The notes under the pieces are model-generated. The model was not told the DNA's origin, made no database searches, and saw only the letters and a program-made list of their open reading frames with translations. Shown here piece after piece: positions 3,099 to 60,095 of a stretch of 64,000 bases of DNA (the first letter of the stretch is position 1; every line of letters begins with the position of its first letter). Both the position numbers and the translations under genes were made by a program. Source of the DNA: Parcubacteria group bacterium GW2011_GWA2_40_23 (GTDB lineage Bacteria; Patescibacteriota; Patescibacteriia; UBA11705; JABHMO01); contig LBYP01000003.1 in the NCBI GenBank assembly GCA_000996245.1, forward strand, positions 9,509 through 73,508, written 5' to 3'.

Positions 3099-3139
3099 AA
3101 ACAACCCACCCCTTTGACGAGGTGGGCCGATTGATGTCC

Positions 3140-4399: not shown

Positions 4400-4514
4400 T
4401 TGCGTTCCCTCCTGGCAAGTCGGGGTAAAAGACCTGGGCGAACTGAGTTCAACGTACTATTTATCAAAATCATTGTCAATTGAGTTTTCTCAAAAAATGC
4501 TAAGCTATATTCAA

Positions 4515-4766
4515 GAATAACCGCCCCAGATCGAGGTGTCTCATGACCAAGAAGAGAAGTCGTCCGCTCGCAGGTTTCAAGGGTTCGATACTCGGCGGCA
4601 ACCACCCACTCGACGACCAGACACGCCAAGCCATCGCCGACGCCAGAAGGTTCCGCCCAATAACAGAGACACATTGCCCACGTATTAGACCTCGACCACA
4701 AATGGCTGGTCACGTCGCGGTAACGAAAACGCCCCGCAGATCAATTCTGTGGGGCGCTCTTTTTTT
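4515..4766 (+). other. GC-rich (~58%) unit ending in a strong intrinsic terminator. It is either a structured ncRNA or the remnant of a foreign high-GC gene (the 75-aa ORF 4543-4770 has GC3-rich codons in its first half and an SD GAGGTG).
   Basis: Terminator hairpin CGCCCCGCAGA-tcaat-TCTGTGGGGCG plus a T7 run at 4730-4766. Composition contrasts sharply with the flanking ~35% GC sequence. Confidence 0.3.
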
Positions 4767-6024: not shown

Positions 6025-6291
6025 ACTTGTGTTTATTTAAATCTCTTATATATAAAACATAATAATAGTAATAATGCTGTGTATTACAGTGGACAAGTCT
6101 TTAGAAGATTTAATTTTAAAGAAATTTCCCTGTGTGTTCGTCTGTGTTTTGCTTGTGTGTGTTGTTGTGTGTAAGTCGTGCTTTTGATTGTTTTGAGACC
6201 CTCAAAATTTAATCAACAGTTGGAGTAAAAAGTTCTAAACATGTTTTTCCAGATAATTTATACGACTTGTAAACAGTTTATCCAGAGAAAA

Positions 6292-7677: not shown

Positions 7678-8098
7678 AGTTTTTTTTGTTTTGTTTTACG
7701 TTTAAAGCTTTTAGCTTCTAGCAAGTTAGCTTATAGGTGCTGAGCTATAAAAGGCTAAACACCTAACAGCTAGAAGCTATTTCCTAGAAGCTTTGTATTG
7801 TAGGTGTTTCTATTTTAGCACGAATGAGTATGTGGACAAGTTGTGATGATCTCTTAAAAACTGCGTAACCTGTTTATAACTTGTTGATAACTGTAAATTA
7901 TATTATCTGAGTTAGTGAAAATATGCAAGAAATAAATTTGGTAAAAGGGAAAAGGGGTATGGGCGAAGGGGAGCTCAAAAACAATTTGATCATAATTAAT
8001 TTTCCCTTATTCCTTACCCCACATCCCATAACCCCTTCTCATTGACAAATCCGCAAAAACAAGCTATTCTATGGTTACTTTACTATTAGACATTTTAT
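7678..8098. promoter_or_regulatory. candidate oriC / dnaA control region
   Basis: DnaA-box-like 9-mers TGTGGACAA (~7831) and TGTTGATAA (~7882). An AT-rich stretch. A long imperfect palindrome at ~7712-7790 (agcttctagc...gctagaagct). An inverted repeat at 7940-8040. A second box cluster lies in the dnaN-dnaA spacer (TTATCCAGA ~6278, AGTGGACAA ~6087). Confidence 0.5.
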
Positions 8099-8245
8099 AT
8101 GCCAAAAAGAACCTTCCAGCCGAACGTTGCTAAGAAACTTAAGAAACAAGGTTTCCGAGCTCGCATGGCTACTAGCGATGGACGAGAAATTATCAAAAGA
8201 CGACGCGCGAAGGGTCGCAAAAGACTAACTGCGTCAGATAAATAA
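8099..8245 (+). CDS. rpmH: 50S ribosomal protein L34
   Basis: Translates to [48 protein letters not shown] (48 aa). Missed by the ORF track because it is under 60 aa. Canonical dnaA-rpmH-rnpA order. Confidence 0.9.
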
Positions 8246-8437
8246 ACGATGGCTTGTCCCAGAAGTTATGCGAAACGTGTGTAATTGAATGGCTTGCCAT
8301 AAAGTTACGCGATTAGCGTATACTTTATGGAAAATTTATTAAAAAGAAGCTACACTGTTAGTAGTTTCTTTTTTGTAAAGTAAAAATAAATTCTATTTAC
8401 TGGTGACTGGTTACAGGTTACTGGTTACCCACGAACT

Positions 8438-8794
8438 ATGCTACAAAAAATATATCGTATAACAAAGCAATTAGAATTTGACGCCTTCTTTGGCAATAAA
8501 TTCAAACAAGCCCGCGGCCGCAATTTTTCTACGGCTAATTTTATTTTTAAGAGTAAGCCAAATGGTTTAAAGAATTCACGTTTTGGTTTTGTTATTTCCA
8601 ACAAAATTGATAATCGCGCAGTCGTCAGAAATCGTCTGCGTCGTTATACCCGTGAGACAATTAGACTCAATTTAGACAAATTTAAACAAAATTTGGATTG
8701 TTTGATTGTCTTTAAAAAAGGTTCACAGACACTGGATCATGAAAAATTAGAAAAAGAAATTTTAGGCATTTTTAAAACAATTAGATTGTTATGA
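8438..8794 (+). CDS. rnpA: ribonuclease P protein component
   Basis: 118 aa, basic. The RNR motif region VVRNRLRRYTRE is present. Follows rpmH. Confidence 0.85.
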   Translation: MLQKIYRITKQLEFDAFFGNKFKQARGRNFSTANFIFKSKPNGLKNSRFGFVISNKIDNRAVVRNRLRRYTRETIRLNLDKFKQNLDCLIVFKKGSQTLDHEKLEKEILGIFKTIRLL

Positions 8795-9051
8795 AATTAA
8801 AAGTTTTTTTATATTATCCTCGATATATCGCGCTTAAGATGATTCGCTTTTATCAGCGAACTATTTCTTTTGATCACAGCCCCATGAAAGAGTTCTTTCC
8901 AGGTGGTTTTTGTCGTTACAATCCATCGTGTTCAGAATATACATATAAATCAATTGAAAAATACGGCTTAATTAAAGGTGGGTTTAAGGGGGCGTGGCGC
9001 ATTATGCGTTGTAATCCTTGGTCAAGGGGTGGCGATGATCCAGTAAAATAG
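8791..9051 (+). CDS. yidD: membrane protein insertion efficiency factor YidD
   Basis: 86 aa. The Cys motif region FCRYNPSCSEY...GGFKGAWRIMRCNPWSRGGDDPV is present. ATGA overlap with the rnpA stop. Confidence 0.85.
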   Translation: MKLKVFLYYPRYIALKMIRFYQRTISFDHSPMKEFFPGGFCRYNPSCSEYTYKSIEKYGLIKGGFKGAWRIMRCNPWSRGGDDPVK

Positions 9052-9192
9052 TTACGAATAGCCACAGAAAGTTGATGTTACGAATTACTGCTAAGACTCG
9101 ATTGCTAAACAGTAATTCGCAACCTCTAAATAATTGAGTTATTTGTAATATAAAAACACGCCGCACTCGACGAGGAGTACGGCGGTGGCTGG

Positions 9193-9570
9193 CTACTTGG
9201 GAGCAGCTGGAACCTTTGTTTGGGCGTTGAACCTTCGGACTTCCTCTTGGCGAAGCCGGTGCCAGGTCAGGTGCTCCATCACGAGCAGCCAGACGATGGC
9301 GATGAAGTAGACGATTGGCCCGAGGGCAATGGTGATCTTCATCAGGGCTTCTGCCAAGAAGTAGATTGTCGCGGCGAAGATGATCGCACACAGGAAGCTA
9401 ATGCCGGTGCGAGGTGCGAGGCGAATGTCCTTGTCCCAGCTCTTCAGCAGGAGGCTGGTGGTCTGTGCGGTTGTGAAGGAGAGGAACAGGAGGGTGAAGA
9501 GGAACACGAGGTGTCCGTTGCCGGGGCCAGTCCCCAGTTGCGTGGATAGGGAACCAAATAGCTCATACAT
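9193..9570 (-). CDS. hypothetical multi-pass membrane protein encoded in a high-GC island
   Basis: 125 aa, 3-4 hydrophobic segments, GC3-rich codons (~58% GC) in a ~35% GC genome. Confidence 0.45.
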   Translation of the reverse strand: MYELFGSLSTQLGTGPGNGHLVFLFTLLFLSFTTAQTTSLLLKSWDKDIRLAPRTGISFLCAIIFAATIYFLAEALMKITIALGPIVYFIAIVWLLVMEHLTWHRLRQEEVRRFNAQTKVPAAPK

Positions 9571-9791
9571 GGGATTCCTCTATGTTGATAACGTTTGTAT
9601 TGGTACTCCCCACAAGTGAATATAGCACAGGGAAACATCTTTGTCAACTAAAAAGAGAGAAGGGTATAATAAAGCAAAAGAGAAATAAAACAGTAAATTT
9701 AAATAAAATGTTTATGTTTATAGGGACAGGTCGCGACCTGTCCCCGTGCAAAAAAAATAGCGCCGGTAGAAATGTTCCTACCAGCGCATTG

Positions 9792-10148
9792 TCAGCGACT
9801 ACGAATGAGCACTCCCTGGTTGCTGCCAACCGGGCCCGTGCAGGCGATCAGGTCGACGTTCTTGTTCCGGGCGTTTATGGCCCTGAAGGGGCAGGCCCAA
9901 GTGTCTTCCTGGGTGCACCCGAATTCTCGTGCGGGAGCCTTGCAGGCGCCCACCTGGATATCGGCGTACCCTTGCTTCTTCACCGCGGCGGAGACCGTCA
10001 CCGGATTCGGGGGCGATTCCATCGACTTCATGTACTTCACGAACGCAGGCACGGCCACCATCGCGACGACGGCCACCATCGCGACTACGATCATGAGCTC
10101 GATCAATGTGAAACCCTTCCTCATTCCGAACCCCCTTGTGTTGAGCAC
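9792..10148 (-). CDS. type IV pilin / pseudopilin-like protein (prepilin N-terminal cleavage-methylation motif)
   Basis: Leader MLNTRGFGMRKG, then FTLIELMIVVAMVAV (the G|FTLIE class III signal). 118 aa with 4 Cys. High GC. Confidence 0.55.
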   Translation of the reverse strand: MLNTRGFGMRKGFTLIELMIVVAMVAVVAMVAVPAFVKYMKSMESPPNPVTVSAAVKKQGYADIQVGACKAPAREFGCTQEDTWACPFRAINARNKNVDLIACTGPVGSNQGVLIRSR

Positions 10149-10182
10149 TATTGAGCGACGCTGTTGACAGTTGTCAGGAAGG

Positions 10183-10545
10183 TCACCAGCTACGAATCAG
10201 CACGCCGGTGTTGTCGCCGGCAGTACCTGTGCAAACGGTCAGGGTAACGCGCTCCTCTCGTACGTTCTTGGCAGAAACTAAACAGGCAAATCGGTCACTT
10301 TCAGGACAACCGAAGTACTCGGGTTTGTCCGAGCATTTGCTGACCGTGATGTCAGTGTATCCTTGGCGCTGTACGGCCAGGGTAATCGCGGATTTGTTCA
10401 TGGGCACTTTGGGAGCCCGTGGAGACAGAAACAAGTTGTAGAACATGACAGCAATAAGTGACACAGCCGCCGCGATCATCACTATTTCCATCGATGTGTT
10501 GTCCTTGGCACGTGGCATCTTGAACCTCCTTGTGTTGAGCACCAT
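10183..10545 (-). CDS. degenerate paralog of the adjacent pilin-like protein
   Basis: The leader (MVLNTRRFKMPRAK) and C-terminus (CTGTAGDNTGVLIRSW versus CTGPVGSNQGVLIRSR) are shared, but the G-F-T-L-I-E motif is degraded (NTSMEIVMIAAAV). High GC. Confidence 0.45.
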   Translation of the reverse strand: MVLNTRRFKMPRAKDNTSMEIVMIAAAVSLIAVMFYNLFLSPRAPKVPMNKSAITLAVQRQGYTDITVSKCSDKPEYFGCPESDRFACLVSAKNVREERVTLTVCTGTAGDNTGVLIRSW

Positions 10546-10631
10546 TTGAACACACCGTCTTCAACAGATAATCATGCCAGCAAAAAATAATTTTGTCAAT
10601 ACACTGAGGAGTACGGCGGTTCGAACAGGCG

Positions 10632-10943
10632 CTACCTCCTGGGCGGAGGCGGCGTGACGAGCGGCTTCTTCTTGCCGAAGATGAGGGCGAGGATGTAGAT
10701 CGCGCCGCCGACGCAGACGAGGATGAAGGCCCACTTCGCGATCCAGATGGCGATGGCTAGCACGATGGTGCCGGTCACGGCCTTTACCACGGCGCGGACG
10801 ATCTGCTTCTGTAGCGGCTCGTCGGGAGCCGTTTTCTGGAGGAAGAAGAGGATGAACGCGAGAGCCAGGCACCCGATAACCCACAACAGCATGACGCACC
10901 TCCTTCGAAGCGTTTGAGAACCAGCAACCACTCGCGAAGTCAT
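10632..10943 (-). CDS. hypothetical membrane protein (high GC); a likely true start is the internal Met at ~10892 (MLLWVIGCLALAF...)
   Basis: Two TM helices and a C-terminal KKKPLVTPPPPRR. Lies in the same high-GC island. Confidence 0.4.
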   Translation of the reverse strand: MTSRVVAGSQTLRRRCVMLLWVIGCLALAFILFFLQKTAPDEPLQKQIVRAVVKAVTGTIVLAIAIWIAKWAFILVCVGGAIYILALIFGKKKPLVTPPPPRR

Positions 10944-11098
10944 AATTTAGTATATAAAGAGATAAAAGTCAATAGCAAGCGTTGTATGGTTTTGTCGGGA
11001 CGAGTTGCGATTTGTTCCCGCGTAAATGAGGGGTTAGTTGCTCATCATTAAAAAATTCGGCACCAGTCATGAGAGACGGGTGCCGCGTAGGAATGTGT

Positions 11099-27016: not shown

Positions 27017-27838
27017 CTATTCCAGCGGTCCGAAGCTGAGATCTTCGCCGCAGTAGGGACAGTTCTTGACCGCACCGGGCAGGCAGGCGAGCTTCGTCTG
27101 TTTTGCCCTCGGACCGGAGATGTCGATCCAGATGAGCGGTTCACCTTCGGGCGACCAGACGATCCTGTCGACCAGCCTGGTGAATCTGGGGAAGCCGCCT
27201 TGCTTCGGGGTGAGGCTGGCTTGGGCTTCGAGCGCCCGCATGTTTTTGCAGCGATGCAGGTAGCTGCCATCGGGATGGAGGGTCCAGACCGCGTTGTGCA
27301 GTTCCCACTCTTTTTGGAGCAGTTCGATGTACGCCCCGTGATCGAAGCCCAGGTGCGTAGGTACTTCGAACAAGGGGATGAACATGGGATTGACTTGAAG
27401 TGTGTTCAGCCATTTTAGCTCGGGCTTGGTTTCCAGGTCGAGGCGCAGGACCATCGAAAGCCGCCGCTTGTCTGTGCGCTTATCGCGATACAGATCCGAG
27501 TGGAAGTACTGCTTGGCCCAGAGCTTGGGGTCTATCTCGAGACCGAAAGTTGCGGCCAGACGCGTGGCTGTCTGGTTGATGTCATGGTCGCAGAGGCTTT
27601 CTTCGACAGCTGGTTTGCTGACAAAGCTGCGACGCTGACTGACTAAATTCCCGGTTGCGAACTCGGTCGTAGGCAGACAGTGCAAGTGCATCGGCAGGTT
27701 CACCAGGGACTCGAATTTGGGCAGAACGAGCAGGATCTCTGGGGTCTTGGTCCGGAACTTGCGGGTTACCATGATGGACAGGTCTAGCACCAGTGGTGTG
27801 AGTCTTGCTTTCTTGCTTGTCATGATGGGCTCCTTCAT
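27017..27838 (-). CDS. hypothetical protein with a C-terminal CPYC zinc ribbon, in a high-GC island (~55% GC)
   Basis: 273 aa, GC3-rich codons, ends ...CLPGAVKNCPYCGEDLSFGPLE. Confidence 0.45.
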   Translation of the reverse strand: MKEPIMTSKKARLTPLVLDLSIMVTRKFRTKTPEILLVLPKFESLVNLPMHLHCLPTTEFATGNLVSQRRSFVSKPAVEESLCDHDINQTATRLAATFGLEIDPKLWAKQYFHSDLYRDKRTDKRRLSMVLRLDLETKPELKWLNTLQVNPMFIPLFEVPTHLGFDHGAYIELLQKEWELHNAVWTLHPDGSYLHRCKNMRALEAQASLTPKQGGFPRFTRLVDRIVWSPEGEPLIWIDISGPRAKQTKLACLPGAVKNCPYCGEDLSFGPLE

Positions 27839-31011: not shown

Positions 31012-31440
31012 ATGCAGAAAACGATTATTGTTGTTGTCCTGAGTCTCTGTGTTTTTTCTTTAGCTACACCGGTTTTTGCTTTCCCCACTTTAGTGCCAGT
31101 TGAATGCTCTGGAGATGCTTTGCTTGATAATCCCTCAACGGCAGAAAAAGAATGTGAACAATGTGACTTGGGAAAAGAATCAGGTCCACAATGTTGTTGT
31201 AATCTTAGCTCTGTTGAACGTATTGCAGTTAATGTCATGCAAATTATTTTGGGCATTGCTGGTTCATTAGCCTTGCTAACATTCGTTGTGGGCGGGGTTT
31301 TGTATATGACCTCTGGCGGTGAACCGGCTAAGGTCAGTAAGGCTACAACAATGTTGAAAACCGCAGTTATTGGTATTGCCATTATTCTTTTATCTGGAAT
31401 TATAATTCAAACACTACTCCGAAAATTAACTGGTACATAA
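31012..31440 (+). CDS. T4SS pilin-like protein (TrbC/VirB2-like, PF18895-like), copy 1. Cys-rich variable region.
   Basis: Signal peptide, variable region (CSGD...CEQC...QCCCN), TM hairpin with the conserved (Y/W)MT(S/A)GG(D/E)P.K loop. Confidence 0.5.
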   Translation: MQKTIIVVVLSLCVFSLATPVFAFPTLVPVECSGDALLDNPSTAEKECEQCDLGKESGPQCCCNLSSVERIAVNVMQIILGIAGSLALLTFVVGGVLYMTSGGEPAKVSKATTMLKTAVIGIAIILLSGIIIQTLLRKLTGT

Positions 31441-31443
31441 AAT

Positions 31444-31833
31444 ATGAAGAAACTTTTTGTTATTTTTGCACTGATATTTTTATTTTGTTCTTTGGCTACT
31501 GTTGTTTTTGCTGGTGAAAAAGCGGCTATAGATGCGGCTATAGACAAAATAGATGTTGGTTTTGGTTCCGGTATTGTCACGGCCAAAGGGGGCGATCCCA
31601 GCACGGTAACTCAAGAATTAATTGGTAATGCCATCAAAATTCTCCTGGGGATAATGGGTTCTGTTGCTTTGTGCATTTTCATTTACGGTGGTATAATATG
31701 GATGACAGCCGGAGGCACACCGGAGAATATTACTAATGCGCAAAACACAATGATTTGGGCAGCAATAGGTCTATTTGCTATTTTTGCTAGCTACATGATT
31801 ATCAATTTCTTAATAGGTTCACTGACGTTTTAA
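31444..31833 (+). CDS. T4SS pilin-like protein, copy 2
   Basis: Same architecture: IWMTAGGTPENI loop between two hydrophobic helices. Confidence 0.5.
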   Translation: MKKLFVIFALIFLFCSLATVVFAGEKAAIDAAIDKIDVGFGSGIVTAKGGDPSTVTQELIGNAIKILLGIMGSVALCIFIYGGIIWMTAGGTPENITNAQNTMIWAAIGLFAIFASYMIINFLIGSLTF

Positions 31834-31870
31834 CAAGTTTAAATAAAAATTAATAATTAACTTTAAGCAC

Positions 31871-32296
31871 ATGCTAAACGTACAAAAAGTTAAAAACATT
31901 GCTCGCCTAGGTGTTTTTGCTTTGGCTATTTTGACTCTCGTTGTGCCAGTAATTCTTCCGTTTGTTACAGCATCAGCTGCAGTTGAGGATTTCGGACTAT
32001 CAGATGTAAGCACTAGCGCTGGTTTGAAGAATGCTGACCTTAAAGCAACTATTGGTAAATTACTCAAGGTTGCTCTAGGCTTCTTGGGTATTATTGCTGT
32101 CATCATTGTTTTAGTTGGTGGTTTTAAGTACATGACAGCTGGTGGTGCAGAAGAAAAAGTTGGTGATGCTAAGAAGTGGATTGTTTCTGGTATCATTGGT
32201 TTAGCGATCGTTTTGAGCGCCTACGCCATTACTTCTTTCGCACTTACACAATTTACAAAAGCATTAACTGATGCTGGCGCACCTAAGGTTGAGTAA
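31871..32296 (+). CDS. T4SS pilin-like protein, copy 3
   Basis: KYMTAGGAEEKV loop. Same family. Confidence 0.5.
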   Translation: MLNVQKVKNIARLGVFALAILTLVVPVILPFVTASAAVEDFGLSDVSTSAGLKNADLKATIGKLLKVALGFLGIIAVIIVLVGGFKYMTAGGAEEKVGDAKKWIVSGIIGLAIVLSAYAITSFALTQFTKALTDAGAPKVE

Positions 32297-32364
32297 TTTT
32301 TTAGTTTGTCCCTCGCCTTTAGCGAGGGACATGACACGAGTTAATTAATAAATTTAATTGATTC

Positions 32365-32769
32365 GTGTCATGTATGAAAAAGACCATTTATTTAAGTATA
32401 ATTTTTATTGCTATATTGACTTTGTTTGCTGCACAAGCAGTTTTTGCAGGTGACCCGCCAGCAGCAGCAAGTACTTTACGCAAAAGTCTCGACACAGCTG
32501 CGACCGAGCCAGGGCTTATTCCAACTAGCGGAGTTACAGACATTCCAAGTATGGTTGGTAAAATAGTGAGTGTGGCCTTGCAATTTGTTTCACTGTTATT
32601 TTTGATAATAATTGTTTACGCTGGTATTCGTTGGATGACGGCCAATGGTGACCCCGGAAAGGTAAAAGAAGCGCGCAGTTGGATGATCCATGCGGCCATA
32701 GGTCTACTTATAACCCTCATGTCTTATCAGGTAGTGGCTTATATAATCGACAAGATTGTAATTCAATAG
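32365..32769 (+). CDS. T4SS pilin-like protein, copy 4
   Basis: RWMTANGDPGKV loop. Confidence 0.5.
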   Translation: MSCMKKTIYLSIIFIAILTLFAAQAVFAGDPPAAASTLRKSLDTAATEPGLIPTSGVTDIPSMVGKIVSVALQFVSLLFLIIIVYAGIRWMTANGDPGKVKEARSWMIHAAIGLLITLMSYQVVAYIIDKIVIQ

Positions 32770-32788
32770 TGTTAGCCGTATAAAAAGT

Positions 32789-33169
32789 ATGAAAAAGGTT
32801 TTAATTTATTTCTTACTATTATCAGTTTTTTGGTGCGCAGGTGTGGCTTATGTCTCGGCTGCCACAGCGCAAGATATTGCCAAGGGTGGTCTTGATGCTA
32901 CTAATGCTAAGGTGGGGTTAGCGGAAGGCGACCCTGCTACAACTATTGGTGCGGCACTGGGCGTTCTGTTGAACATATTGAGTTTAATATTTTTAATAAT
33001 TTGTGTTTACGCTGGGGTTACGTGGATGACAGCTAGTGGCGAAAAAGATAATATTGCTAAAGCCAGATCCATGTTGATTCAAGGTTCTATAGGTCTTGCA
33101 GTAACGCTTGCAGCTTACGCCTTTACTGCGTTTGTGGTTGATCGTATAAGTACAGCTGTAATAAAATAG
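32789..33169 (+). CDS. T4SS pilin-like protein, copy 5
   Basis: TWMTASGEKDNI loop. Confidence 0.5.
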   Translation: MKKVLIYFLLLSVFWCAGVAYVSAATAQDIAKGGLDATNAKVGLAEGDPATTIGAALGVLLNILSLIFLIICVYAGVTWMTASGEKDNIAKARSMLIQGSIGLAVTLAAYAFTAFVVDRISTAVIK

Positions 33170-33173
33170 TGAT

Positions 33174-33596
33174 ATGAAAAACTTTATTTATAATCCACGT
33201 AATTTGAAAATCTTAAGCTTATTATTTATTATTGTTTGTAGTTTTGTTTTTGCTAGTGTTGGTCAGGCGGGGCTCGATTTAAATGGTCCACTAGAAAAGG
33301 CAGGTAAGGGTATTTACGGAGCAGATGCCTTGCCCACAGCAGATCAAATGCCGATTACTATTGGTAAAGTTATTGGAGTAGTTCTTTCCTTAGTTGGTAT
33401 AATTTTGGTAATCATAATCGTTTATGCCGGTTTTACTTGGATGACTGGTGGTGGTGATCCAGAAAAAATTAAAGATGCCAAGAGTTGGATGCTTAATGCC
33501 GTGATTGGTTTGTTGATTTGCCTCGTTGCTTATAGCTTGTCATCTTTCGTGGTGACTAAAATTTTTGAAGCAACAACTGCCACTAAGACACCATGA
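33174..33596 (+). CDS. T4SS pilin-like protein, copy 6
   Basis: TWMTGGGDPEKIKDAKSWMLNAVIGL, nearly identical to copy 7. Confidence 0.5.
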   Translation: MKNFIYNPRNLKILSLLFIIVCSFVFASVGQAGLDLNGPLEKAGKGIYGADALPTADQMPITIGKVIGVVLSLVGIILVIIIVYAGFTWMTGGGDPEKIKDAKSWMLNAVIGLLICLVAYSLSSFVVTKIFEATTATKTP

Positions 33597-34063
33597 AAAA
33601 AATAGGTTTTAAATATTTAATTAATTTTAGTATGATGAAAAAATTCTTCTCTTTGTCATTATTATTGATAATGACAGCCATCCTTGTATCTAATCTTTGG
33701 GTGGTCCCCGCTGTTTCAGCTAGTAATCTTCAATCCAACATACAAGGCAGTATGGACCAGGTGACAAAGGCAGCTGGGTATGGAGATGCTACAACCGGCA
33801 TATCAGATTTGCCAACAATGGTAGGTAATATAATTGGTATTGGTTTAGGTCTCCTTGGTATGGTCATGGTGATAATTATTATTTATTCTGGTTACCTTTG
33901 GATGACTGGTGGTGGTGACCCAGAAAAAATTAAAGATGCTAAGAGTTGGATGTTAAATGCAGTAATTGGTTTAATTATTCTTTTAGCTGCTTATTCGATT
34001 TCAGACTTTGTTATCTTAAAGGTTTTTTGCGCCACAAGCGACAATACTGCTGCTGGTTGCTAG
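33593..34063 (+). CDS. T4SS pilin-like protein, copy 7
   Basis: LWMTGGGDPEKIKDAKSWMLNAVIGL. ATGA overlap with copy 6. Confidence 0.5.
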   Translation: MKKIGFKYLINFSMMKKFFSLSLLLIMTAILVSNLWVVPAVSASNLQSNIQGSMDQVTKAAGYGDATTGISDLPTMVGNIIGIGLGLLGMVMVIIIIYSGYLWMTGGGDPEKIKDAKSWMLNAVIGLIILLAAYSISDFVILKVFCATSDNTAAGC

Positions 34064-41419: not shown

Positions 41420-41815
41420 TCACTTGAGCGGTTCGAGCAAGACGAACATTGGCACTTCGTTTGCCGTTGGGATGAGGCAAAGCTTGGTGCCGAGCATTTC
41501 GTACTTGTAGATCGCTTCTTTTTCTTCTTTGCTCCGCGAGTTGAAGACGAAGCCGGCGCTTTCGGCCTGAGCGTGTTCATGAACACGCACGTAGAGCAGG
41601 TCCAGCCCAGCGTTCTTGATGTCGGACGGAATATCTGCCGTGGTCTTGGCCAGGTGTTCGGGGGACAGGATCCCTGCGATCGTAACCACGCGGCACGTGT
41701 AGACAGGTGGTTGCTTTCCTTCGGACTGACAGCAGCTGCTTGCTCTCATGACCAGGTACATTGCACTGGCCACGAGCACGAGACATCCGAATGTGAAGAG
41801 ACCACGGAACATCAT
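41420..41815 (-). CDS. hypothetical secreted/membrane-anchored protein, high-GC island (start placed at the MMFRGLF Met)
   Basis: N-terminal TM/signal, GC3-rich codons, C-terminal FVLLEPLK shared with the neighbour. Confidence 0.4.
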   Translation of the reverse strand: MMFRGLFTFGCLVLVASAMYLVMRASSCCQSEGKQPPVYTCRVVTIAGILSPEHLAKTTADIPSDIKNAGLDLLYVRVHEHAQAESAGFVFNSRSKEEKEAIYKYEMLGTKLCLIPTANEVPMFVLLEPLK

Positions 41816-41832
41816 GGTTGACCTCGATGTTG

Positions 41833-42267
41833 TTACTGGATCTTGAGCGGTTCGTACAGGACGAACACACCCATCCGAACGAGGTCGACGCAAAGCGGAA
41901 TCTTGTTCCGCTGGTAGTCGAGGATGCTGGTCATGTTGTTCGGGAACGGTGACGACAGGATGTAACCCTCGTACTTGATGTTGTTGCCCTCGACGTTAGC
42001 CAGCACCACGTACGGCAGTTTCATGAAGGCCGGTTTCACTGCCTCGTTGTGCGGGATGCGCGTCTCGTCGTCGTGGTTTTCCCTCGCGACGATGCTCTCG
42101 ATGGTGACCATGACTTCGGGGCACCAGACGGTGAGCTGCTTCTCTGCCGTGTGGGTGCAGCCCTTGAACGAGAAGAGGTAGCTTAAGCCGATGAAGAAGA
42201 GTGCTCCGAGGAGTAAGCCGCCAATCGCACCAAGGACGCGACGGAGAGTCATGGTAAGCCTCAACAT
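41833..42267 (-). CDS. hypothetical secreted/membrane-anchored protein, paralog of 41420-41815, high GC
   Basis: N-terminal TM (LGAIGGLLLGALFFIGL), C-terminal FVLYEPLKIQ. Confidence 0.4.
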   Translation of the reverse strand: MLRLTMTLRRVLGAIGGLLLGALFFIGLSYLFSFKGCTHTAEKQLTVWCPEVMVTIESIVARENHDDETRIPHNEAVKPAFMKLPYVVLANVEGNNIKYEGYILSSPFPNNMTSILDYQRNKIPLCVDLVRMGVFVLYEPLKIQ

Positions 42268-45420: not shown

Positions 45421-45503
45421 AAAATGTACGCGCAACACGTCTGTGTTGTAGGGAACAAAAATTTTTGTTCCCTACCGTCCAAATGGACGGGGCGTACATT
45501 TTT
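45421..45503. repeat. ~85-bp nested palindromic element, copy B (near-identical core to copy A)
   Basis: GTAGGGAACAAAAATTTTTGTTCCCTACCGTCCAAATGGACGG flanked by the AAAATGTACG...CGTACATTTTTT outer stem. Confidence 0.8.
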
Positions 45504-47053
45504 TATTGTTTCCACAGCTCCTCAAAATAATCATTGTACGATTGCACCAAATGTTCATTTTCAGAAATAAAGAAGATGGGCTTTTTTTTGTCTGCCCAAT
45601 TAGCAATGACGAGTTTTTTGCCATAGAGCCAGACAACATTGGGGTTGCCTATTTTTGAAAGATTATATTTTGTGCGACTCCATGGATATTTGGTAATGGC
45701 ATGGCCTTGGACACTACGATCAACAATATTGCGCCAAATAATCCCCGGAGTATTTTTGGCTTTGGCTTCAATCTTTTTAAAAAGTTCAGGATAATAATCG
45801 ATAAAATATCCGCGGGCGCCAATCAAGCGTAATTCCTTAGTGTCAAGCGCTTCAAACCAAATTTTCTGCAGAGCTTCTGGACCTTGAAGTGTGTACGTTT
45901 CTTGCTGCCAAATATTATCAAAATAATTTTTGAATGATTCAGCCATGATTGGATTATCGAAAGAGATAACAGTTGGAACTTTTTCGTAAAGAATGAAAAA
46001 AATCTTATTGTTATAAATATTTATCTGCATCGGTATGGGGGTGGTGTTGATGTATTTTCTTAAAAAGCTTACTTTGCCTTCGGGATCCCCACATTTGGCA
46101 AATTTTTCTTTTAAATTATCATATGATTCTTGAAAACAAAGCATTTTTGTTATTACACCTTTTTTTATTCTTTCGGTGTGAAATTTGTCGTAGAGTTCAT
46201 GGAAACCAGGTGGATAATCTTTGCCTAAAGCACCGAGAACATAATAATGTTCCCCAGGTTTTAGTGCATTGAGCTGATCATAAATAGCTTCTTCAACAGC
46301 ATCTAATCCAGTTTTAGTGATGGTTCGTTGATTCCAAAAATAGTTGAAGTATTTTTTAAAGCCCTCAACAATTTTTTTGTCTTTGACGCTAATCGTAATG
46401 GGGTTATCACTCATCAACCCGATATTTAAAAGATCATCAATAAAATCAAACCAAAAAGGGGAATCGATATTGAAGGGTAGAAAGCGAGCTTTGCTCAATG
46501 GCAAGGAGTTTCTCCACGCCAAGCCTTCTTTGACGAGTGGGTCAGATGAAAGCTCATATAAAATTTTTTGACTGATTTTTTTCTTTTCACGTTCTTTGTG
46601 AAAACGCTTCCAAAATGATTCCATTTCTGGTTTTGATGTTAAATTTGTTGCGCCAAGAACATAAAACTCACTACCAGCTGGATAATTTAAAACGCGATTG
46701 CGAGCTCTTTTAATCCCTTCAACGCCCGCAAAGATTTGGATGTCGCCAGCTTCTGTGGTGTGTCTTTTGTGTAGTTCAATAATAATTTCCTTCGCTGTTT
46801 CTTCTTGATCAAGAACGTTTTCGAGAATCGATTCAGGATTGTTGGGAATGAACTCAGCTACGCCACGAGAGGTGAGTTTTGAAACCAACTTTTTTTTAAG
46901 TAATGATTCAAGAGACGTATAAACTAGGTTACGATGTAATCCCGTAAGTTCAATTATTTTACCAGCGCGGCTTTTCCCGTTTTCAATTAGGTATAAATAT
47001 ACAGTGATTTCATTAGGTGAAAAGCCTAGTTGTTGTAGTTTGTCTTTTATCAT
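45503..47053 (-). CDS. TrmB-family transcriptional regulator with a triplicated C-terminal domain
   Basis: N-terminal wHTH (ITVYLYLIENGKSRAGKIIELTGLHRNLVYTSL). Three ~150-aa repeats ending FKKYFNYFWNQ, FKNYFDNIWQQ and YNDYFEELWKQ. Confidence 0.55.
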   Translation of the reverse strand: MIKDKLQQLGFSPNEITVYLYLIENGKSRAGKIIELTGLHRNLVYTSLESLLKKKLVSKLTSRGVAEFIPNNPESILENVLDQEETAKEIIIELHKRHTTEAGDIQIFAGVEGIKRARNRVLNYPAGSEFYVLGATNLTSKPEMESFWKRFHKEREKKKISQKILYELSSDPLVKEGLAWRNSLPLSKARFLPFNIDSPFWFDFIDDLLNIGLMSDNPITISVKDKKIVEGFKKYFNYFWNQRTITKTGLDAVEEAIYDQLNALKPGEHYYVLGALGKDYPPGFHELYDKFHTERIKKGVITKMLCFQESYDNLKEKFAKCGDPEGKVSFLRKYINTTPIPMQINIYNNKIFFILYEKVPTVISFDNPIMAESFKNYFDNIWQQETYTLQGPEALQKIWFEALDTKELRLIGARGYFIDYYPELFKKIEAKAKNTPGIIWRNIVDRSVQGHAITKYPWSRTKYNLSKIGNPNVVWLYGKKLVIANWADKKKPIFFISENEHLVQSYNDYFEELWKQ

Positions 47054-47230
47054 ATATTTAGTGACAGTTTTATTATAGTAAAATTAGTCAATAAAGACAA
47101 GCTTGCATCTATTTTGTCTGTGTGGTTTGATTATATTTTGACTAAATTTAAAGCAAAAGGCTTGATTTATCTTAATTTTTATGATATTATTATAAGTCCT
47201 GACAAGTAGGGACAAGACAAACCAACTCTT

Positions 47231-47842
47231 GTGGAGGCTCTCATGAAGCTCGCTAGCCTGATCCTCGCCCTTGCGCTGGTGCTGTCCTCGACCGTCTTCG
47301 CCCAGGAGCGTTCGCTCTCGGGCAACTTCGAGATCCAGAGCGTGACCCCTGCGGTCGAGAAGAACCTGATCCTGAGCGGCGGCCTGATCTACAAGGTCAC
47401 CCCGCAGTTCGCCGGGAAGCTCTTCTTCCTGACCAAGGGACCCTGGGCCGAAGTCTATGCGGGACCGATGTTCACGCCCGCAGCCTGGATTCAGCTCTAC
47501 GCGTGCGCGGGTGCGAGCCAGAAGGCTGGGGAGCTTGAGCTCCGGACCGCGTACGGCATCAACCTGATCTACCGCGCGTTCGTCTTCAGCGCGGGTACCG
47601 AGATGAACAATGCCGCCTACAAGGGCGACTACAAGTCCATCTGGTACGACATCACGGCTACTTATCAGCCCCTGTCCTGGCTCATCGTGGGCCTGAAGGA
47701 CCGGCGGCCTGTCGGTTTCGGTCCCATGATCCGCTTCCGCTACGACGTGGCAGAGGTCTGGGTCACCTGGGCACCGGTCTCGTCCGAGAACTCGACGACC
47801 GACATGGATCGCTTCATCGTCGGTTTGAAGTTCAACCTCTAG
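47231..47842 (+). CDS. secreted beta-strand-rich (outer-membrane-barrel-like) protein encoded in a ~60% GC island
   Basis: Signal peptide LILALALVLSSTVFAQ, alternating aromatic/hydrophobic pattern, strongly GC3-biased codons, its own terminator. Confidence 0.45.
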   Translation: MEALMKLASLILALALVLSSTVFAQERSLSGNFEIQSVTPAVEKNLILSGGLIYKVTPQFAGKLFFLTKGPWAEVYAGPMFTPAAWIQLYACAGASQKAGELELRTAYGINLIYRAFVFSAGTEMNNAAYKGDYKSIWYDITATYQPLSWLIVGLKDRRPVGFGPMIRFRYDVAEVWVTWAPVSSENSTTDMDRFIVGLKFNL

Positions 47843-47848
47843 CTAATG

Positions 47849-47888
47849 CCGGCGCACCTTCTCACGGAAGGTGCGCCGGATTCTTTTT
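47849..47888 (+). terminator. intrinsic terminator of the high-GC gene
   Basis: CCGGCGCACCTTC-tcac-GGAAGGTGCGCCGG followed by TTCTTTTT. Confidence 0.7.
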
Positions 47889-47965
47889 AATCAATTCTTT
47901 TCAATCACAGTTCCCAAGTAACTCTAATTTAGATATAATATAGTCATCAATTCTTAATCTTTTGT

Positions 47966-52605: not shown

Positions 52606-52824
52606 TTATTTTTTATTAAAATCTTCTTTTGTTAAGTTCGCTTGCCTGACAATTGAACGGAAGGTGCCATAGGTTATTTCTTTTTCATGTATTGGAACAA
52701 TCACCGTTAGCGTCATTGTACTTTCTTTGCGATATTTTGCATGTGAGCCTGTTTGTGAAACAAAAAAGAACCCCTTAGACTTTAGGATTCTTAGAAGTAA
52801 GCGTAGCGGATAAGGCTTAGGCAT
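52606..52824 (-). CDS. hicA: HicA-family mRNA interferase toxin
   Basis: KSKGFFFVSQTGSHAKYRKES..TLTVIVPIHEKEITYGTFRSIVRQANL matches the YcfA/HicA fold pattern. Confidence 0.6.
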   Translation of the reverse strand: MPKPYPLRLLLRILKSKGFFFVSQTGSHAKYRKESTMTLTVIVPIHEKEITYGTFRSIVRQANLTKEDFNKK

Positions 52825-53035
52825 ACTGCAAGGTGATAGATTCGATAGCTGGTCGGCTGACGTTTAATTTCTTTGGGAGGGGGATATCTTCGAAATATAA
52901 TTCTAAAGCTTCGTGTAGGTTTGTTAATGCTTCTTTCTTTGTCTTTCCGAAACTGGAAACATCCACCTCTAAACATTGGGAGACATAGTATTTGCCTTCT
53001 TTCCAAACAACTGATTTTAGGTTTATTTTACTCAT
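52817..53035 (-). CDS. hicB: HicB-family antitoxin
   Basis: YYVSQCLEVDVSSFGKTKKEALTNLHEALELYFE (UPF0150 pattern). Overlaps hicA by 8 nt. Confidence 0.55.
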   Translation of the reverse strand: MSKINLKSVVWKEGKYYVSQCLEVDVSSFGKTKKEALTNLHEALELYFEDIPLPKKLNVSRPAIESITLQYA

Positions 53036-59302: not shown

Positions 59303-59588
59303 TTTTTTATGTTAATCTGCATAAAAACAGCCGACCTTTTGATGATTCTGTTTTCACTGGTTTCCCAGTGGCTCTATTATAGGCTAAAAGCAAAATACTG
59401 TCAAGTCGTAAAAGGTCATATTTGGACTAATTTTAGGTAAATTTTGGGGAAAGAATAATGAATAATGAATAAAGAATAATGAAGCAAAACACGTTATTCG
59501 TTATTCTTAATTCTTTATTCCCGTCCATGGTATAATGAAGGTACTTGTTAAGGATTTAGGGTTTTAAACGTCTTATATTATAGAGCAT

Positions 59589-60095
59589 ATGCCCAGCCGA
59601 GAAGAAAAATTTGAGCAGTTATTTGAAATACACGCTGACGAAATTTTCCGTTTTGTCTATTTCCGAGTCTATGACAGGGAGTTAGCCAAGGATTTGGTGC
59701 AAGATACTTTTTTGCGCGCCTGGAGCTTTGAGCTTAAAGAGAAAGTTTGGAATAAGCGTGCACTCCTGTTTAAGATAGCTCGAAATTTGATTATCGATAA
59801 CGCACGTCAAAAAAGGGAGACTTACTCAATCGATCAAGTGTTAGAACAATCTGGGGTTGAGCCCATCGATAAAAAGGATCTGGACATCGAACTTGATGGA
59901 AAAATGTTTTTAGAGAACCTAGATAAACTCAAAACTGACGAGCAGGAATTAATTACACTCAGATATTTAAGCGGATTTTCTCCACGCGAAATTGCTAAAA
60001 TGTTAGAGCGTAGTGTCGGCGTAGTCTCGGTACAATTAACTCGAGCTAAAAATAAGCTCAAACAAATTTATGAAGATTCCATTCCGAAAAATTAA
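59589..60095 (+). CDS. ECF-subfamily sigma-70 factor
   Basis: Region 2 DLVQDTFLRAW. Region 4 LSGFSPREIAKMLERSVGVVSVQLTRA. An extended -10 (TGGTATAAT) lies at ~59528-59536. Confidence 0.8.
   Translation: MPSREEKFEQLFEIHADEIFRFVYFRVYDRELAKDLVQDTFLRAWSFELKEKVWNKRALLFKIARNLIIDNARQKRETYSIDQVLEQSGVEPIDKKDLDIELDGKMFLENLDKLKTDEQELITLRYLSGFSPREIAKMLERSVGVVSVQLTRAKNKLKQIYEDSIPKN

What the first reader, a model, noticed from the sequence alone, without database searches (positions are those of the whole stretch)
47231..47888. Foreign-looking ~60% GC gene for a secreted beta-barrel-like protein with its own terminator
A 203-aa ORF with a textbook signal peptide, an alternating aromatic/hydrophobic beta-strand pattern and extreme GC3 bias is inserted between the TrmB regulator and an acyltransferase. 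It is followed by a perfect 13-bp-stem terminator. An outer-membrane-barrel-like protein is unexpected in a lineage that appears to lack outer-membrane machinery in this window. Together with the other islands it suggests repeated small-scale gene capture from a high-GC donor.
Basis: partly seen in the sequence, partly recalled or inferred. Interest (0 to 1): 0.6.

Follow-up and report, generated by a model that had tools for sequence, protein, structure and literature searches.

The report
GC-rich barrel-protein gene in Parcubacteria
A small, self-contained gene in an AT-rich ultra-small (CPR) bacterium encodes an exported 12-stranded barrel protein of the kind normally found in outer membranes. 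Its "foreign" GC-rich composition is an old feature that related genomes also maintain, not a sign of recent gene capture.

Summary
A 62% GC gene (GC3 0.87) sits in a 39% GC window from Parcubacteria GW2011_GWC2_39_14. The compositional change points fall at 47233 and 47879, which is the Shine-Dalgarno site to the end of a perfect 13-bp terminator stem. The true start is probably ATG 47243 (199 aa).

AlphaFold2 with a 59-sequence alignment (pLDDT 94) gives a 12-strand antiparallel barrel. Its only significant PDB fold matches (E <= 1e-3) are transmembrane beta-barrels (a designed 12-strand barrel, intimin/invasin, KdgM/NanC, PcoB). One strand face is hydrophobic and aromatic, the other is charged. 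The family has about 180 clusters, no Pfam model, and mostly ends in Phe.

The "capture from a high-GC donor" reading is not supported. Named homologues are all Patescibacteria. Orthologues at 41-92% identity occupy the same slot, divergent from a TrmB regulator, in at least six related AT-rich genomes, and all are GC-rich. Their four-fold sites are near saturation yet stay 77-88% GC. Two other islands in the window behave the same way.

Alleles of this gene are also swapped between close relatives. I conclude it is a resident, probably TrmB-controlled, exported barrel or channel gene. Its GC content is held up by a gene-specific fixation bias. Which membrane it occupies, in a lineage thought to lack an outer membrane, is open.

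The parts
45503..47053 (-). TrmB-family transcription regulator (516 aa), transcribed divergently from the barrel gene. It is the conserved partner of the gene.
   Evidence: Pfam PF01978 at E 1.1e-11. The divergent TrmB/barrel pair recurs in L004, L013, L027, L028, L029, L033 and, with a 258-aa TrmB, in L021.
47072..47100 (-). Candidate sigma-70-type promoter of the TrmB gene.
   Evidence: TTGTCT-17-TATAAT, 10 of 12 matches. The block is conserved in the orthologue alignment, where the -35 reads TTGACA in relatives.
47079..47089 (-). Candidate operator half-site GACTAATTTTA, inside the TrmB promoter spacer.
   Evidence: It is one of only three exact GACTAAWTTTA matches in the 64-kb window, and two of them lie in this intergenic region as an inverted pair. 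Its function is inferred.
47140..47150 (+). Candidate operator half-site GACTAAATTTA, just upstream of the barrel gene's -35 element.
   Evidence: (inverted pair I8, 13 nt, 92% complementary). It is partly conserved. Its function is inferred.
47162..47190 (+). Promoter of the barrel gene: TTGATT, 17 nt, TATTAT, with an upstream TG (extended -10).
   Evidence: The -10 block TATGATATTAT is invariant in six orthologues, and the -35 is nearly so.
47196..47213 (+). Conserved 5'-leader hairpin candidate (GUCCU...GGGAC) at the predicted 5' end of the mRNA.
   Evidence: The sequence is conserved in six orthologues. A 5-6 bp stem is predicted in 4 of 5 leaders, but it is no more stable than shuffles. 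A role as an mRNA stabiliser or operator is inferred.
47233..47237 (+). Shine-Dalgarno sequence GGAGG. It also marks the upstream GC change point.
   Evidence: Read from the sequence. Conserved. Change point at 47233.
47243..47842 (+). Coding sequence of 199 aa plus stop. The signal peptide is residues 1-20 (47243-47302) and the mature 12-stranded beta-barrel is residues 21-199.
   Evidence: ORF and deposited protein; AF2 models; fold matches; strand faces; family of 182 representatives.
47849..47889 (+). Intrinsic terminator: a 13-14 bp GC-rich stem (47849-47879) plus a T tract. Its end marks the downstream GC change point.
   Evidence: Compensatory changes in L004 and L008. Change point at 47879.
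47911..47939 (+). Separate promoter-like site of the downstream acyltransferase gene. This makes the barrel gene monocistronic.
   Evidence: TTCCCA-17-TATAAT, 10 of 12 matches. TATAAT is conserved in relatives.

Best explanation
Window 47162-47889 is a resident, monocistronic gene of this Parcubacteria clade.

Shown: it has its own conserved promoter, leader, Shine-Dalgarno site and terminator. Its product carries an N-terminal signal-like sequence and is confidently modelled as a 12-stranded antiparallel barrel with one hydrophobic/aromatic face and one charged face. It belongs to an uncharacterised family of about 180-215-aa proteins found, as far as names and contexts show, in Patescibacteria.

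Inferred: the protein is exported by Sec and forms a small monomeric membrane channel of the KdgM/NanC size class in a lipid layer outside the cytoplasmic membrane. That layer could be an unrecognised outer layer of the cell or the outer membrane of the host it attaches to. Conserved lumen residues (E30, E70, R101, E120, D136, R154, R155, E182) would line the channel or lock it. Expression is probably controlled by the divergently encoded TrmB-type regulator through the inverted GACTAAWTTTA pair.

The GC-richness is not a scar of recent import.

Shown: it is a stationary property shared by all orthologues, and it is confined to the transcribed segment. Alleles of this one gene are exchanged between relatives.

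Inferred: GC content is kept high by a gene-specific bias in which substitutions become fixed, most likely tied to recurrent homologous allele exchange (GC-biased conversion). Selection on the transcript is the main alternative.
For: Gene anatomy and conservation.

Identity of the genome and scarcity of homologues.

Fold:
- AF2 with 6 sequences gives pLDDT 82.8. AF2 with 59 sequences gives pLDDT 94.2 and pTM 0.82, with all five models above 93 and 12 strands.
- The 36 Foldseek PDB hits at E <= 1e-3 are all transmembrane barrels, the best at TM 0.54-0.63 (9fdg, 4e1s/4e1t, 8xua, 4pr7/4fqe, 2wjq, 7pge).

Membrane-type pattern:
- The hydrophobic face has 1 charged residue of 59 and 17 aromatic residues. 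The other face has 17 charged residues of 60.
- The family C-terminus is Phe in 79 of 140 members, with Gly at -6 in 91 of 140.

Family: 182 representatives at E < 1e-3, no Pfam, PDB-sequence or PHROG match. Named members are Parcubacteria, Patescibacteria and Magasanikbacteria.

Conserved slot and TrmB pairing.

Persistent GC:
- Orthologue GC3 is 0.76-0.94 in the same-slot relatives, whose DNA outside the gene is 0.33-0.40 GC. The 41%-identity orthologue (L033, genome 0.375) is 0.558 GC.
- Four-fold-site divergence in the gene is 0.38-0.64, close to its own ceiling of about 0.6, with GC4 of 0.77-0.88. Neutral decay calibrated on the flanks predicts at most 0.36-0.60.
- In the closest pair, polarised four-fold changes are S>W 4 and W>S 4.
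- GroEL and TypA have GC3 of 0.27-0.29, so this is not a generic high-expression bias.

Allele exchange:
- L012 vs L013 have 78 mismatches, all confined to the leader and the gene, followed by 620 nt at 100% identity.
- Window vs L027: the gene is 0.908 identical, against 0.72-0.87 for the genes around it.
- L008 vs L013: the gene is 78% identical at protein level, against 68% for the flanks.

Envelope context.
Against: - No experiment or localisation data exist.
- The barrel is a prediction. Coordinates could not be inspected, so which face points outward is inferred from the residue pattern and the fold matches.
- The window protein ends in Leu, not the canonical aromatic residue.
- No barrel-assembly machinery is encoded in the window, and CPR cells imaged so far lack an outer membrane. 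A conventional outer-membrane location therefore has no support.
- TrmB control rests only on conserved adjacency and a short repeated motif.
- The cause of the GC bias is not resolved. GC-biased conversion in bacteria is debated. The sharp borders at the transcript ends fit selection on the mRNA at least as well. In the L012/L013 allele pair, most polarised changes are S>W (29:1), although the outgroup there is saturated and 94% GC3.
- The taxonomic range rests on four named proteins and about a dozen contexts. One member lies on a phage-like contig.
Confidence: 0.65

Rival explanations
1. One reading: a recently captured foreign gene from a high-GC, outer-membrane-bearing donor, inserted between the TrmB and acyltransferase genes and not yet ameliorated.
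For: GC3 is 0.87 against about 0.30 in the neighbours, with sharp borders. The fold is of outer-membrane type in a lineage without an outer membrane. Some family members lie in 54-56% GC contigs.
Against: The gene is present in the same slot in every relative recovered, down to 41% identity, and is GC-rich in each. Synonymous sites are near-saturated but still GC-rich, which is incompatible with neutral decay. No homologue from a named non-CPR organism turned up among 5.8 billion and 1.8 billion sequences. There is no integrase, tRNA or flanking direct repeat. The promoter and terminator are conserved.
Confidence: 0.04
2. Same gene and protein, but the GC-richness is held by selection on the transcript or on codon choice rather than by recombination-linked biased conversion. 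Possible targets are mRNA stability against AU-specific RNases, or a codon-biased subset of genes whose translation is tuned by the tRNA pool or tRNA modification.
For: The GC plateau starts at the Shine-Dalgarno site and leader and ends at the terminator stem, so it matches the mRNA. Four-fold sites of the gene evolve roughly half as fast as those of its neighbours in the closest pair, which fits synonymous constraint. Several unlinked small genes in the window share the trait, and it is conserved in relatives. A conserved 5' hairpin is present.
Against: Genes that are normally highly expressed (GroEL, TypA) have ordinary GC3. GC1 and GC2 and the untranslated leader are raised as well, which points to a nucleotide-level force rather than a codon-level one. 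Synonymous constraint cannot explain an 11% allele difference on a background that is identical downstream. No expression data exist.
Confidence: 0.3
3. The barrel is not a structural channel of the CPR cell envelope. It is a secreted, host-directed pore or adhesin that inserts into the outer membrane of the Gram-negative host at the attachment site, to tap nutrients or anchor the episymbiont.
For: Imaged CPR cells lack an outer membrane but attach to hosts with two membranes. The window contains no assembly machinery. The barrel is minimal with short loops, like barrels known to fold unaided (this last point is from general knowledge). The gene evolves faster than its flanks at protein level and its alleles are swapped, as expected for an interface protein.
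Against: No export route beyond Sec is evident. A C-terminal Phe/Gly(-6) signature normally implies assembly from the periplasmic side. There is no host information for this genome. The idea is entirely inferential.
Confidence: 0.25
4. Artefact: a chimeric metagenome assembly or a binning error that joined a high-GC fragment to an AT-rich contig.
For: The GC step is abrupt. The source is a metagenome-assembled genome.
Against: Three independent assemblies from other pipelines match at 100% identity across both junctions. The same arrangement occurs in at least six diverged relatives.
Confidence: 0.01

Closest known systems
KdgM/NanC family of small monomeric 12-stranded outer-membrane channels (PDB 4fqe, 4pr7, 2wjq, 8xua)
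   Same: Twelve antiparallel strands, about 180-215 residues, short loops and a polar or charged lumen, with Foldseek TM 0.53-0.58. In proteobacteria these channel genes are induced by sugar-responsive regulators (general knowledge). Here the partner is a TrmB-type regulator.
   Different: There is no detectable sequence relationship: no Pfam hit and no hit of the family profile against PDB sequences. The organism is a CPR bacterium with no known outer membrane. The substrate is unknown.
Transmembrane beta-domain of intimin/invasin (4e1s, 4e1t) and the de novo designed 12-strand barrel (9fdg)
   Same: These are the best overall fold matches (TM 0.58-0.63, E 2e-5 to 1e-4). They share the strand number and barrel size.
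   Different: Intimin and invasin barrels carry a passenger domain and a linker through the pore. This protein is only the barrel. Sequence identity is 10-11%.
Generic OMP beta-barrels with a C-terminal beta-signal (OmpA/OmpX/OmpW class; Pfam OMP_b-brl)
   Same: Signal peptide, dyad hydrophobic pattern, abundant aromatic residues, and a family C-terminus of G-x-x-hydrophobic-x-Phe/Leu. UniRef labels one member 'Outer membrane protein beta-barrel domain-containing protein'.
   Different: None of 59 members reaches any Pfam OMP model, even at E 0.1. It has 12 strands rather than 8. BAM is not known in this lineage.
Classical genomic islands and morons (recent horizontal acquisitions with atypical composition)
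   Same: Atypical GC and codon use, sharp borders, own promoter and terminator, and a lineage-restricted small gene.
   Different: It is present and syntenic across diverged relatives. It shows no amelioration despite saturated synonymous sites. It has no mobility genes or repeats, and no donor lineage is visible.
Recombination hot-spot surface-protein genes such as Neisseria porB, and recombination-associated GC enrichment in bacteria (Lassalle et al. 2015, cited from memory)
   Same: A surface-type barrel gene whose alleles are exchanged on otherwise near-identical backgrounds. GC is raised specifically in the exchanged segment.
   Different: The size of the GC3 excess (about +55 points) is far beyond reported recombination effects. 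Biased conversion is not demonstrated here.

Membership tests
Outer-membrane-type transmembrane beta-barrel (fold class) | N-terminal Sec signal peptide with a signal peptidase I site | tested here: inconclusive
   MKLASLILALALVLSSTVFA|QE has an n-region, an h-region and V-F-A. AF2 models residues 2-17 as a helix. In the family, 129 of 140 members have an N-terminal hydrophobic run. No dedicated predictor was available.
Outer-membrane-type transmembrane beta-barrel (fold class) | Closed barrel with an even number of antiparallel strands joined by hairpins | tested here: met
   The AF2 model has 12 strands at pLDDT 94.2 and pTM 0.82. All 36 Foldseek PDB hits at E <= 1e-3 are transmembrane barrels. 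This is a prediction, not an experiment.
Outer-membrane-type transmembrane beta-barrel (fold class) | Alternating residues giving a lipid-facing hydrophobic/aromatic surface and a polar lumen | tested here: met
   One face has 1 charged residue of 59 and 17 aromatic residues. The other has 17 charged residues of 60 and 9 Gly. Which face is outside is inferred.
Outer-membrane-type transmembrane beta-barrel (fold class) | C-terminal beta-signal ending in an aromatic residue | tested here: inconclusive
   In the family, the last residue is Phe in 79 of 140 members and Gly is at -6 in 91 of 140. The window protein ends G-L-K-F-N-L, which fits the motif but has a terminal Leu.
Outer-membrane-type transmembrane beta-barrel (fold class) | Barrel-assembly machinery (BamA/Omp85) in the same genome, and residence in an outer membrane | not testable with these tools
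   No such Pfam family was found among about 50 window proteins or among the genes listed for related loci. The rest of the genome could not be searched. The literature reports no outer membrane in CPR cells.
KdgM/NanC porin family (Pfam KdgM) | Sequence match to the family model | tested here: not met
   There is no Pfam hit for the protein or for 59 relatives at E <= 0.1, and no PDB sequence hit with the family profile at E <= 10. Only the fold resembles this family.
Recently acquired genomic island | Atypical base composition and codon use | tested here: met
   GC is 0.62 against 0.39, and GC3 is 0.87 against about 0.30.
Recently acquired genomic island | Absent from close relatives (patchy distribution) | tested here: not met
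   The gene is in the same slot in L027, L004/L028, L008/L029, L013 and L033, and beside one or both of the same flanking genes on the short contigs L011 and L012.
Recently acquired genomic island | Composition decaying toward the host's (amelioration), with closest homologues in a donor lineage | tested here: not met
   GC4 is 0.77-0.88 although the flanks' four-fold sites are 83-100% turned over, and the expected value is at most 0.36-0.60. S>W equals W>S in the closest pair. The only named homologues are from Patescibacteria.
Recently acquired genomic island | Mobility genes, a tRNA target or flanking direct repeats | tested here: not met
   There is no integrase or transposase ORF nearby. 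The tRNAs are at 16 kb and 58 kb only. No flanking direct repeats bracket the gene.
TrmB-regulated gene (TrmB regulon member) | Conserved linkage to a TrmB gene and an operator in the shared intergenic region | tested here: inconclusive
   The linkage is conserved in at least seven lineages, including a member at 37% identity. An inverted pair of exact GACTAAWTTTA sites is present, two of only three in the window. No binding or expression data exist.

The most novel reading that the evidence does not exclude
Two linked possibilities remain open.

First, these Parcubacteria and many other Patescibacteria make genuine OMP-type 12-stranded barrels although they have no outer membrane of their own. 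That would mean either an unrecognised outer lipid layer or insertion of the barrel into the host's outer membrane as a TrmB-regulated nutrient conduit at the episymbiont-host contact.

Second, the gene belongs to a small class of unlinked genes in these AT-rich, reduced genomes whose GC content (GC3 0.7-0.9) is actively held about 50 points above the genomic level over long evolutionary time. That would be a strong, localised fixation bias from biased conversion or transcript-level selection, of a size not described for bacteria.
Probability: 0.25. Interest if true: 0.85.

Novelty: new variant of a known kind. Interest (0 to 1): 0.62.

Why it matters
Three points follow if this holds.

1. CPR/Patescibacteria are treated as a monoderm clade in reconstructions of how the outer membrane was lost. 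A widespread CPR family of OMP-type barrels with a Phe-terminal signature either challenges that picture or points to a new way for an episymbiont to act on its host's membrane.

2. The locus is a clean counter-example to the routine inference that atypical GC means recent horizontal transfer. Here the anomaly is ancient, stationary and shared by orthologues. It offers a tractable case for measuring GC-biased fixation against AT-biased mutation in a reduced genome.

3. For annotation, about 180 clusters of 'hypothetical proteins' gain a fold assignment, a likely regulator and a testable role.

Tried and rejected
- Pfam, NCBIfam and PHROGs scans of the protein and of relatives found no family. 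A profile search against PDB sequences also found nothing.
- A second word-indexed search with the 59-sequence profile added little because of its candidate cap.
- Viral collections gave nothing. The wide alignment was too variable to seed a scan, the scan with the six-sequence alignment A1 found no relative, and tblastn against GenBank phages found none.
- I tested whether the small signal-peptide ORFs next to TrmB in the more distant genomes L014, L017 and L018 are homologues. HMM and hhalign searches found no significant match. Only a similar C-terminal motif (TDMD...G-x-[KR]-x-N-[FL]) and a weak YfaZ hit were seen, so they are recorded as positional analogues only.
- Polarising the L012/L013 differences with L008 gave S>W 29 and W>S 1. 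I do not rely on this result because the outgroup is 94% GC3 and near saturation.
- The explanation 'generic codon bias of highly expressed genes' was rejected, because GroEL and TypA have GC3 of 0.27-0.29.
- The explanation 'all secreted proteins are GC-rich' was rejected, because seven T4SS-pilin-like secreted ORFs at 31.0-34.1 kb have ordinary GC3.
- Rfam found nothing in the region or in the extra element of relatives.
- Literature searches found no report of CPR beta-barrels or of conserved GC-rich genes in CPR.
Full report
**What is there.** The window is AT-rich (GC 0.39) and matches Parcubacteria group bacterium GW2011_GWC2_39_14. The protein is deposited as hypothetical protein UT32_C0002G0060.
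- The probable start is ATG 47243 (199 aa). It is preceded by GGAGG at 47233-47237, and both are conserved in six orthologues.
- GC is 0.62 and GC3 is 0.87, while neighbouring genes have GC3 of 0.31-0.34.
- A two-change-point fit puts the compositional borders at 47233 and 47879, which is the ribosome-binding site to the last base of the terminator stem. GC is 0.623 inside and 0.319 outside.
- The terminator has perfect 13-nt arms, folds at -28.7 kcal/mol and has z = -8.6.
- The DNA is 100% identical across both junctions in three independent assemblies, so it is not an assembly artefact.

**The gene is a complete transcription unit.** Alignment of the upstream region from six orthologues shows several conserved features:
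- an invariant extended -10 (TATGATATTAT) and a near-invariant -35 (TTGATT, 47162-47190);
- a conserved short hairpin at the predicted 5' end (47196-47213), which is conserved in sequence but not unusually stable;
- the Shine-Dalgarno site and the ATG.

Downstream, the terminator hairpin is conserved in all six orthologues, with compensatory base changes in L004 and L008. The acyltransferase gene has its own promoter-like site.

The intergenic region also holds an inverted pair of exact GACTAAWTTTA sites. One lies in the spacer of the TrmB promoter and one just upstream of the barrel gene's -35. Only three exact copies exist in the 64 kb. I treat these as a candidate operator, and this is an inference.

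**The protein.**
- No Pfam, NCBIfam or PHROG family matches.
- AF2 with six sequences gave pLDDT 82.8. With 59 family members it gave pLDDT 94.2 and pTM 0.82, with all five models above 93. The model has a signal-peptide helix followed by 12 antiparallel strands joined by tight turns.
- Foldseek against the PDB, run on the first (six-sequence) model, returned only transmembrane beta-barrels among its 36 hits at E <= 1e-3. The best are a designed 12-strand barrel (9fdg), the intimin/invasin beta-domains, the KdgM/NanC/VhGalP channels and PcoB, at TM 0.54-0.63.
- Within the strands, one face carries 1 charged residue of 59 and 17 aromatic residues. The other carries 17 charged residues of 60 and 9 glycines. 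E30, E70, R101, E120, D136, R154, R155 and E182 are conserved across the family.
- A 12-strand barrel with no plug and a charged interior fits a membrane channel and does not fit a soluble barrel.

**The family.** An exhaustive profile search found 182 cluster representatives at E < 1e-3, nearly all 180-215 aa.
- Most have an N-terminal hydrophobic segment. The last residue is Phe in 79 of 140 members and Leu in 25 of 140. Gly is at -6 in 91 of 140, which is the signature of outer-membrane barrel C-termini.
- The few members that carry names are from Parcubacteria, 'Patescibacteria group' and Magasanikbacteria. One is auto-labelled as an OMP beta-barrel domain protein.
- Every genomic context I could retrieve looks like CPR, except one phage-like contig.
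CPR are treated as monoderm. Groundwater ultra-small cells imaged by cryo-TEM lack an outer membrane while attaching to hosts with two membranes. About 50 proteins of the window include no outer-membrane machinery.

**It is not a recent capture.** Orthologues at 92% (L027), 74% (L004/L028), 57-58% (L008/L029, L013) and 41% identity (L033) sit in the same place, divergent from the TrmB gene. The short contigs L011 (68%) and L012 (57%) carry the gene beside the same conserved promoter block, and L012 also beside the acyltransferase gene. In all but L033 the gene is immediately followed by the acyltransferase, the 220-aa ORF, Zip and SIMPL where the contig reaches that far.
- A member at 37% identity (L021) is again paired with a TrmB gene.
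- In every one of these genomes (0.33-0.42 GC outside the gene) the gene is GC-rich. GC3 is 0.76-0.94 in the same-slot orthologues. The more distant ones are L033 at GC 0.558 against 0.375 and L021 at 0.56 against 0.42.
- Four-fold degenerate sites of the gene differ at 38-64% between orthologues. That is close to the ceiling of about 60% for its own composition, yet the sites stay 77-88% G or C.
- I calibrated a simple F81 decay on the flanking genes, whose four-fold sites are 83-100% turned over. Even a 100% GC ancestor should now be at 0.36-0.60 at most.
- In the closest pair (window vs L027, outgroup L028) the polarised four-fold changes are balanced: S>W 4, W>S 4, S>S 6. A neutral expectation from the genome's equilibrium would be roughly 15:1. 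The numbers are small.
- No mobility genes, tRNA or flanking repeats are present.
- The GC-richness is therefore a stationary, maintained state.

**The other islands behave the same way.**
- The 273-aa ORF at 27017-27838 has orthologues at 73% and 53% identity in the same synteny. They have GC3 of 0.68-0.77 in genomes of 0.37 GC.
- The 144-aa ORF at 41833-42267 has GC-rich orthologues in L013 and L027.
- GroEL and TypA have ordinary GC3 (0.27-0.29), and so do seven secreted pilin-like ORFs. Neither high expression nor secretion as such explains the trait.

**Alleles move within the clade.** The relative divergence of the gene and its flanks is inconsistent from pair to pair.
- Window vs L027: the gene is 90.8% identical and the terminator 97.9%. 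The genes around it are 72-87% identical (TrmB 82%, acyltransferase 83%) and the intergenic region is 80%.
- L008 vs L013: the protein is 78% identical, against 68% for the flanks.
- L012 vs L013: all 78 mismatches fall in the leader and the gene (11% divergence). The next 620 nt are identical.

Synonymous constraint alone cannot produce the last pattern. Homologous replacement of alleles can produce all three. Because the imported alleles land between the same AT-rich flanks, their reservoir must be the clade itself and not a distant high-GC donor.

**Mechanism I commit to.**
- Shown: the unit's anatomy, the conserved slot, the barrel prediction, the stationary GC and the allele exchange.
- Inferred, on function: the protein is exported through Sec and forms a small monomeric channel in a lipid layer outside the cytoplasmic membrane. 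Expression is set by the divergent TrmB-type regulator, by analogy with substrate-induced specific channels such as KdgM and NanC.
- Inferred, on composition: the GC level is kept up by a fixation bias local to this recombining segment (GC-biased conversion). Selection on the transcript is the main rival, because the plateau matches the mRNA exactly and the gene's synonymous rate is about half that of its neighbours.
- Open: which membrane the barrel occupies. A host-directed pore is a serious alternative.

**Comparison with known things.** By fold, the protein is an OMP-type 12-strand barrel closest in size to KdgM/NanC. By sequence, it belongs to no described family. As a compositional island, it fails three of the four defining features of a recent acquisition. 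I therefore rate it a new variant of a known kind. The two unusual aspects are the lineage it occurs in and the long-term maintenance of a roughly 55-point GC3 excess.

Noticed in passing
window 9151-10950: A second GC-rich island lies directly after rnpA (8438-8794) and yidD (8791-9051). It holds four small minus-strand ORFs with GC3 of 0.63-0.84 (9193-9570, 9792-10148, 10183-10545, 10632-10943). One has a prepilin N-methylation motif. The products of 9792 and 10183 share a C-terminal motif, so they look like paralogues.
   Followed up: partly
window 27017-27838 (-): A 273-aa ORF with no Pfam match and GC3 of 0.74. Orthologues at 73% and 53% identity sit in the same synteny (NTP_transferase, SBP_bac_1, T4SS_pilin cluster) and are still GC-rich (GC3 0.68-0.77) in genomes of 0.37 GC.
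   Followed up: yes
window 41420-42267 (-): Two tandem ORFs with N-terminal membrane anchors and similar C-termini (..FVL.EPLK), so probably paralogues. Their GC3 is 0.62 and 0.83. Orthologues of the second ORF in L013 and L027 are also GC-rich.
   Followed up: partly
window 1231-4713: A moderately GC-rich stretch (0.48-0.50). It contains an archaeal-type S-adenosylmethionine synthetase (PF01941, 3140-4399) and a 396-aa ORF with no Pfam match. This may be a separate compositional anomaly.
   Followed up: no
L004 3275-3440; L011 1275-1440; L008 880-1050; L013 8900-9075; L012 1030-1205: Relatives carry a structured element of about 150-230 nt between the barrel gene's terminator and the acyltransferase gene. 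It has a hairpin (TTACTTTTTG..CAAAAAGTAA) and a long-range GGGGG/CCCCC stem with some compensatory pairs. It lies on the same strand as the barrel gene in three lineages and on the opposite strand in two. It is absent from the window and has no Rfam match.
   Followed up: partly
L013 (CAZMEQ010000009.1): This GTDB representative contig is titled 'uncultured Gammaproteobacteria bacterium'. It is syntenic with this Parcubacteria window (SMC 88% identical, same gene order), so the label or the bin is probably wrong.
   Followed up: partly
window 31012-34063: Seven tandem ORFs of 126-156 aa with signal peptides, most likely T4SS_pilin-like paralogues. The first one hits T4SS_pilin (PF18895) here, and the syntenic clusters in L025 and L026 are annotated the same way. 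Their GC3 is ordinary (0.28-0.36), in contrast to the GC-rich islands.
   Followed up: no
L024 8001-8696: A family member (P0065) lies on a phage-like contig, next to a T4 rIIB-like gene, a NUDIX gene and many small ORFs. The contig GC is 0.56. No counterpart was found in GenBank phages or IMG/VR.
   Followed up: partly
L014 9282-9782, L017 8790-9320, L018 9212-9787: In more distant Patescibacteria (TrmB 41-46% identical), a different small signal-peptide, beta-rich ORF sits divergent from the TrmB gene. These ORFs are 166-191 aa and end in ..LPF..LPL or ..NFAWEL. They are also GC-enriched (L018 is 0.57 against 0.39). No significant homology to the barrel family was detected, so they are positional analogues.
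   Followed up: partly
window 59425-59435: The third exact copy of GACTAAWTTTA in the window lies about 150 nt upstream of an ECF sigma-factor gene (59589-60095). It might belong to the same regulon.
   Followed up: no
window 4897-9051: dnaN, dnaA, rnpA and yidD are clustered here, and the minimum of cumulative GC skew falls near 5 kb. The window therefore spans the chromosomal replication origin region.
   Followed up: no
window 52606-53035 (-): Two adjacent 72-aa ORFs on the minus strand. The first is called as a HicA toxin (PF07927) in the matching locus L001, so together they look like a HicA/HicB toxin-antitoxin pair.
   Followed up: no
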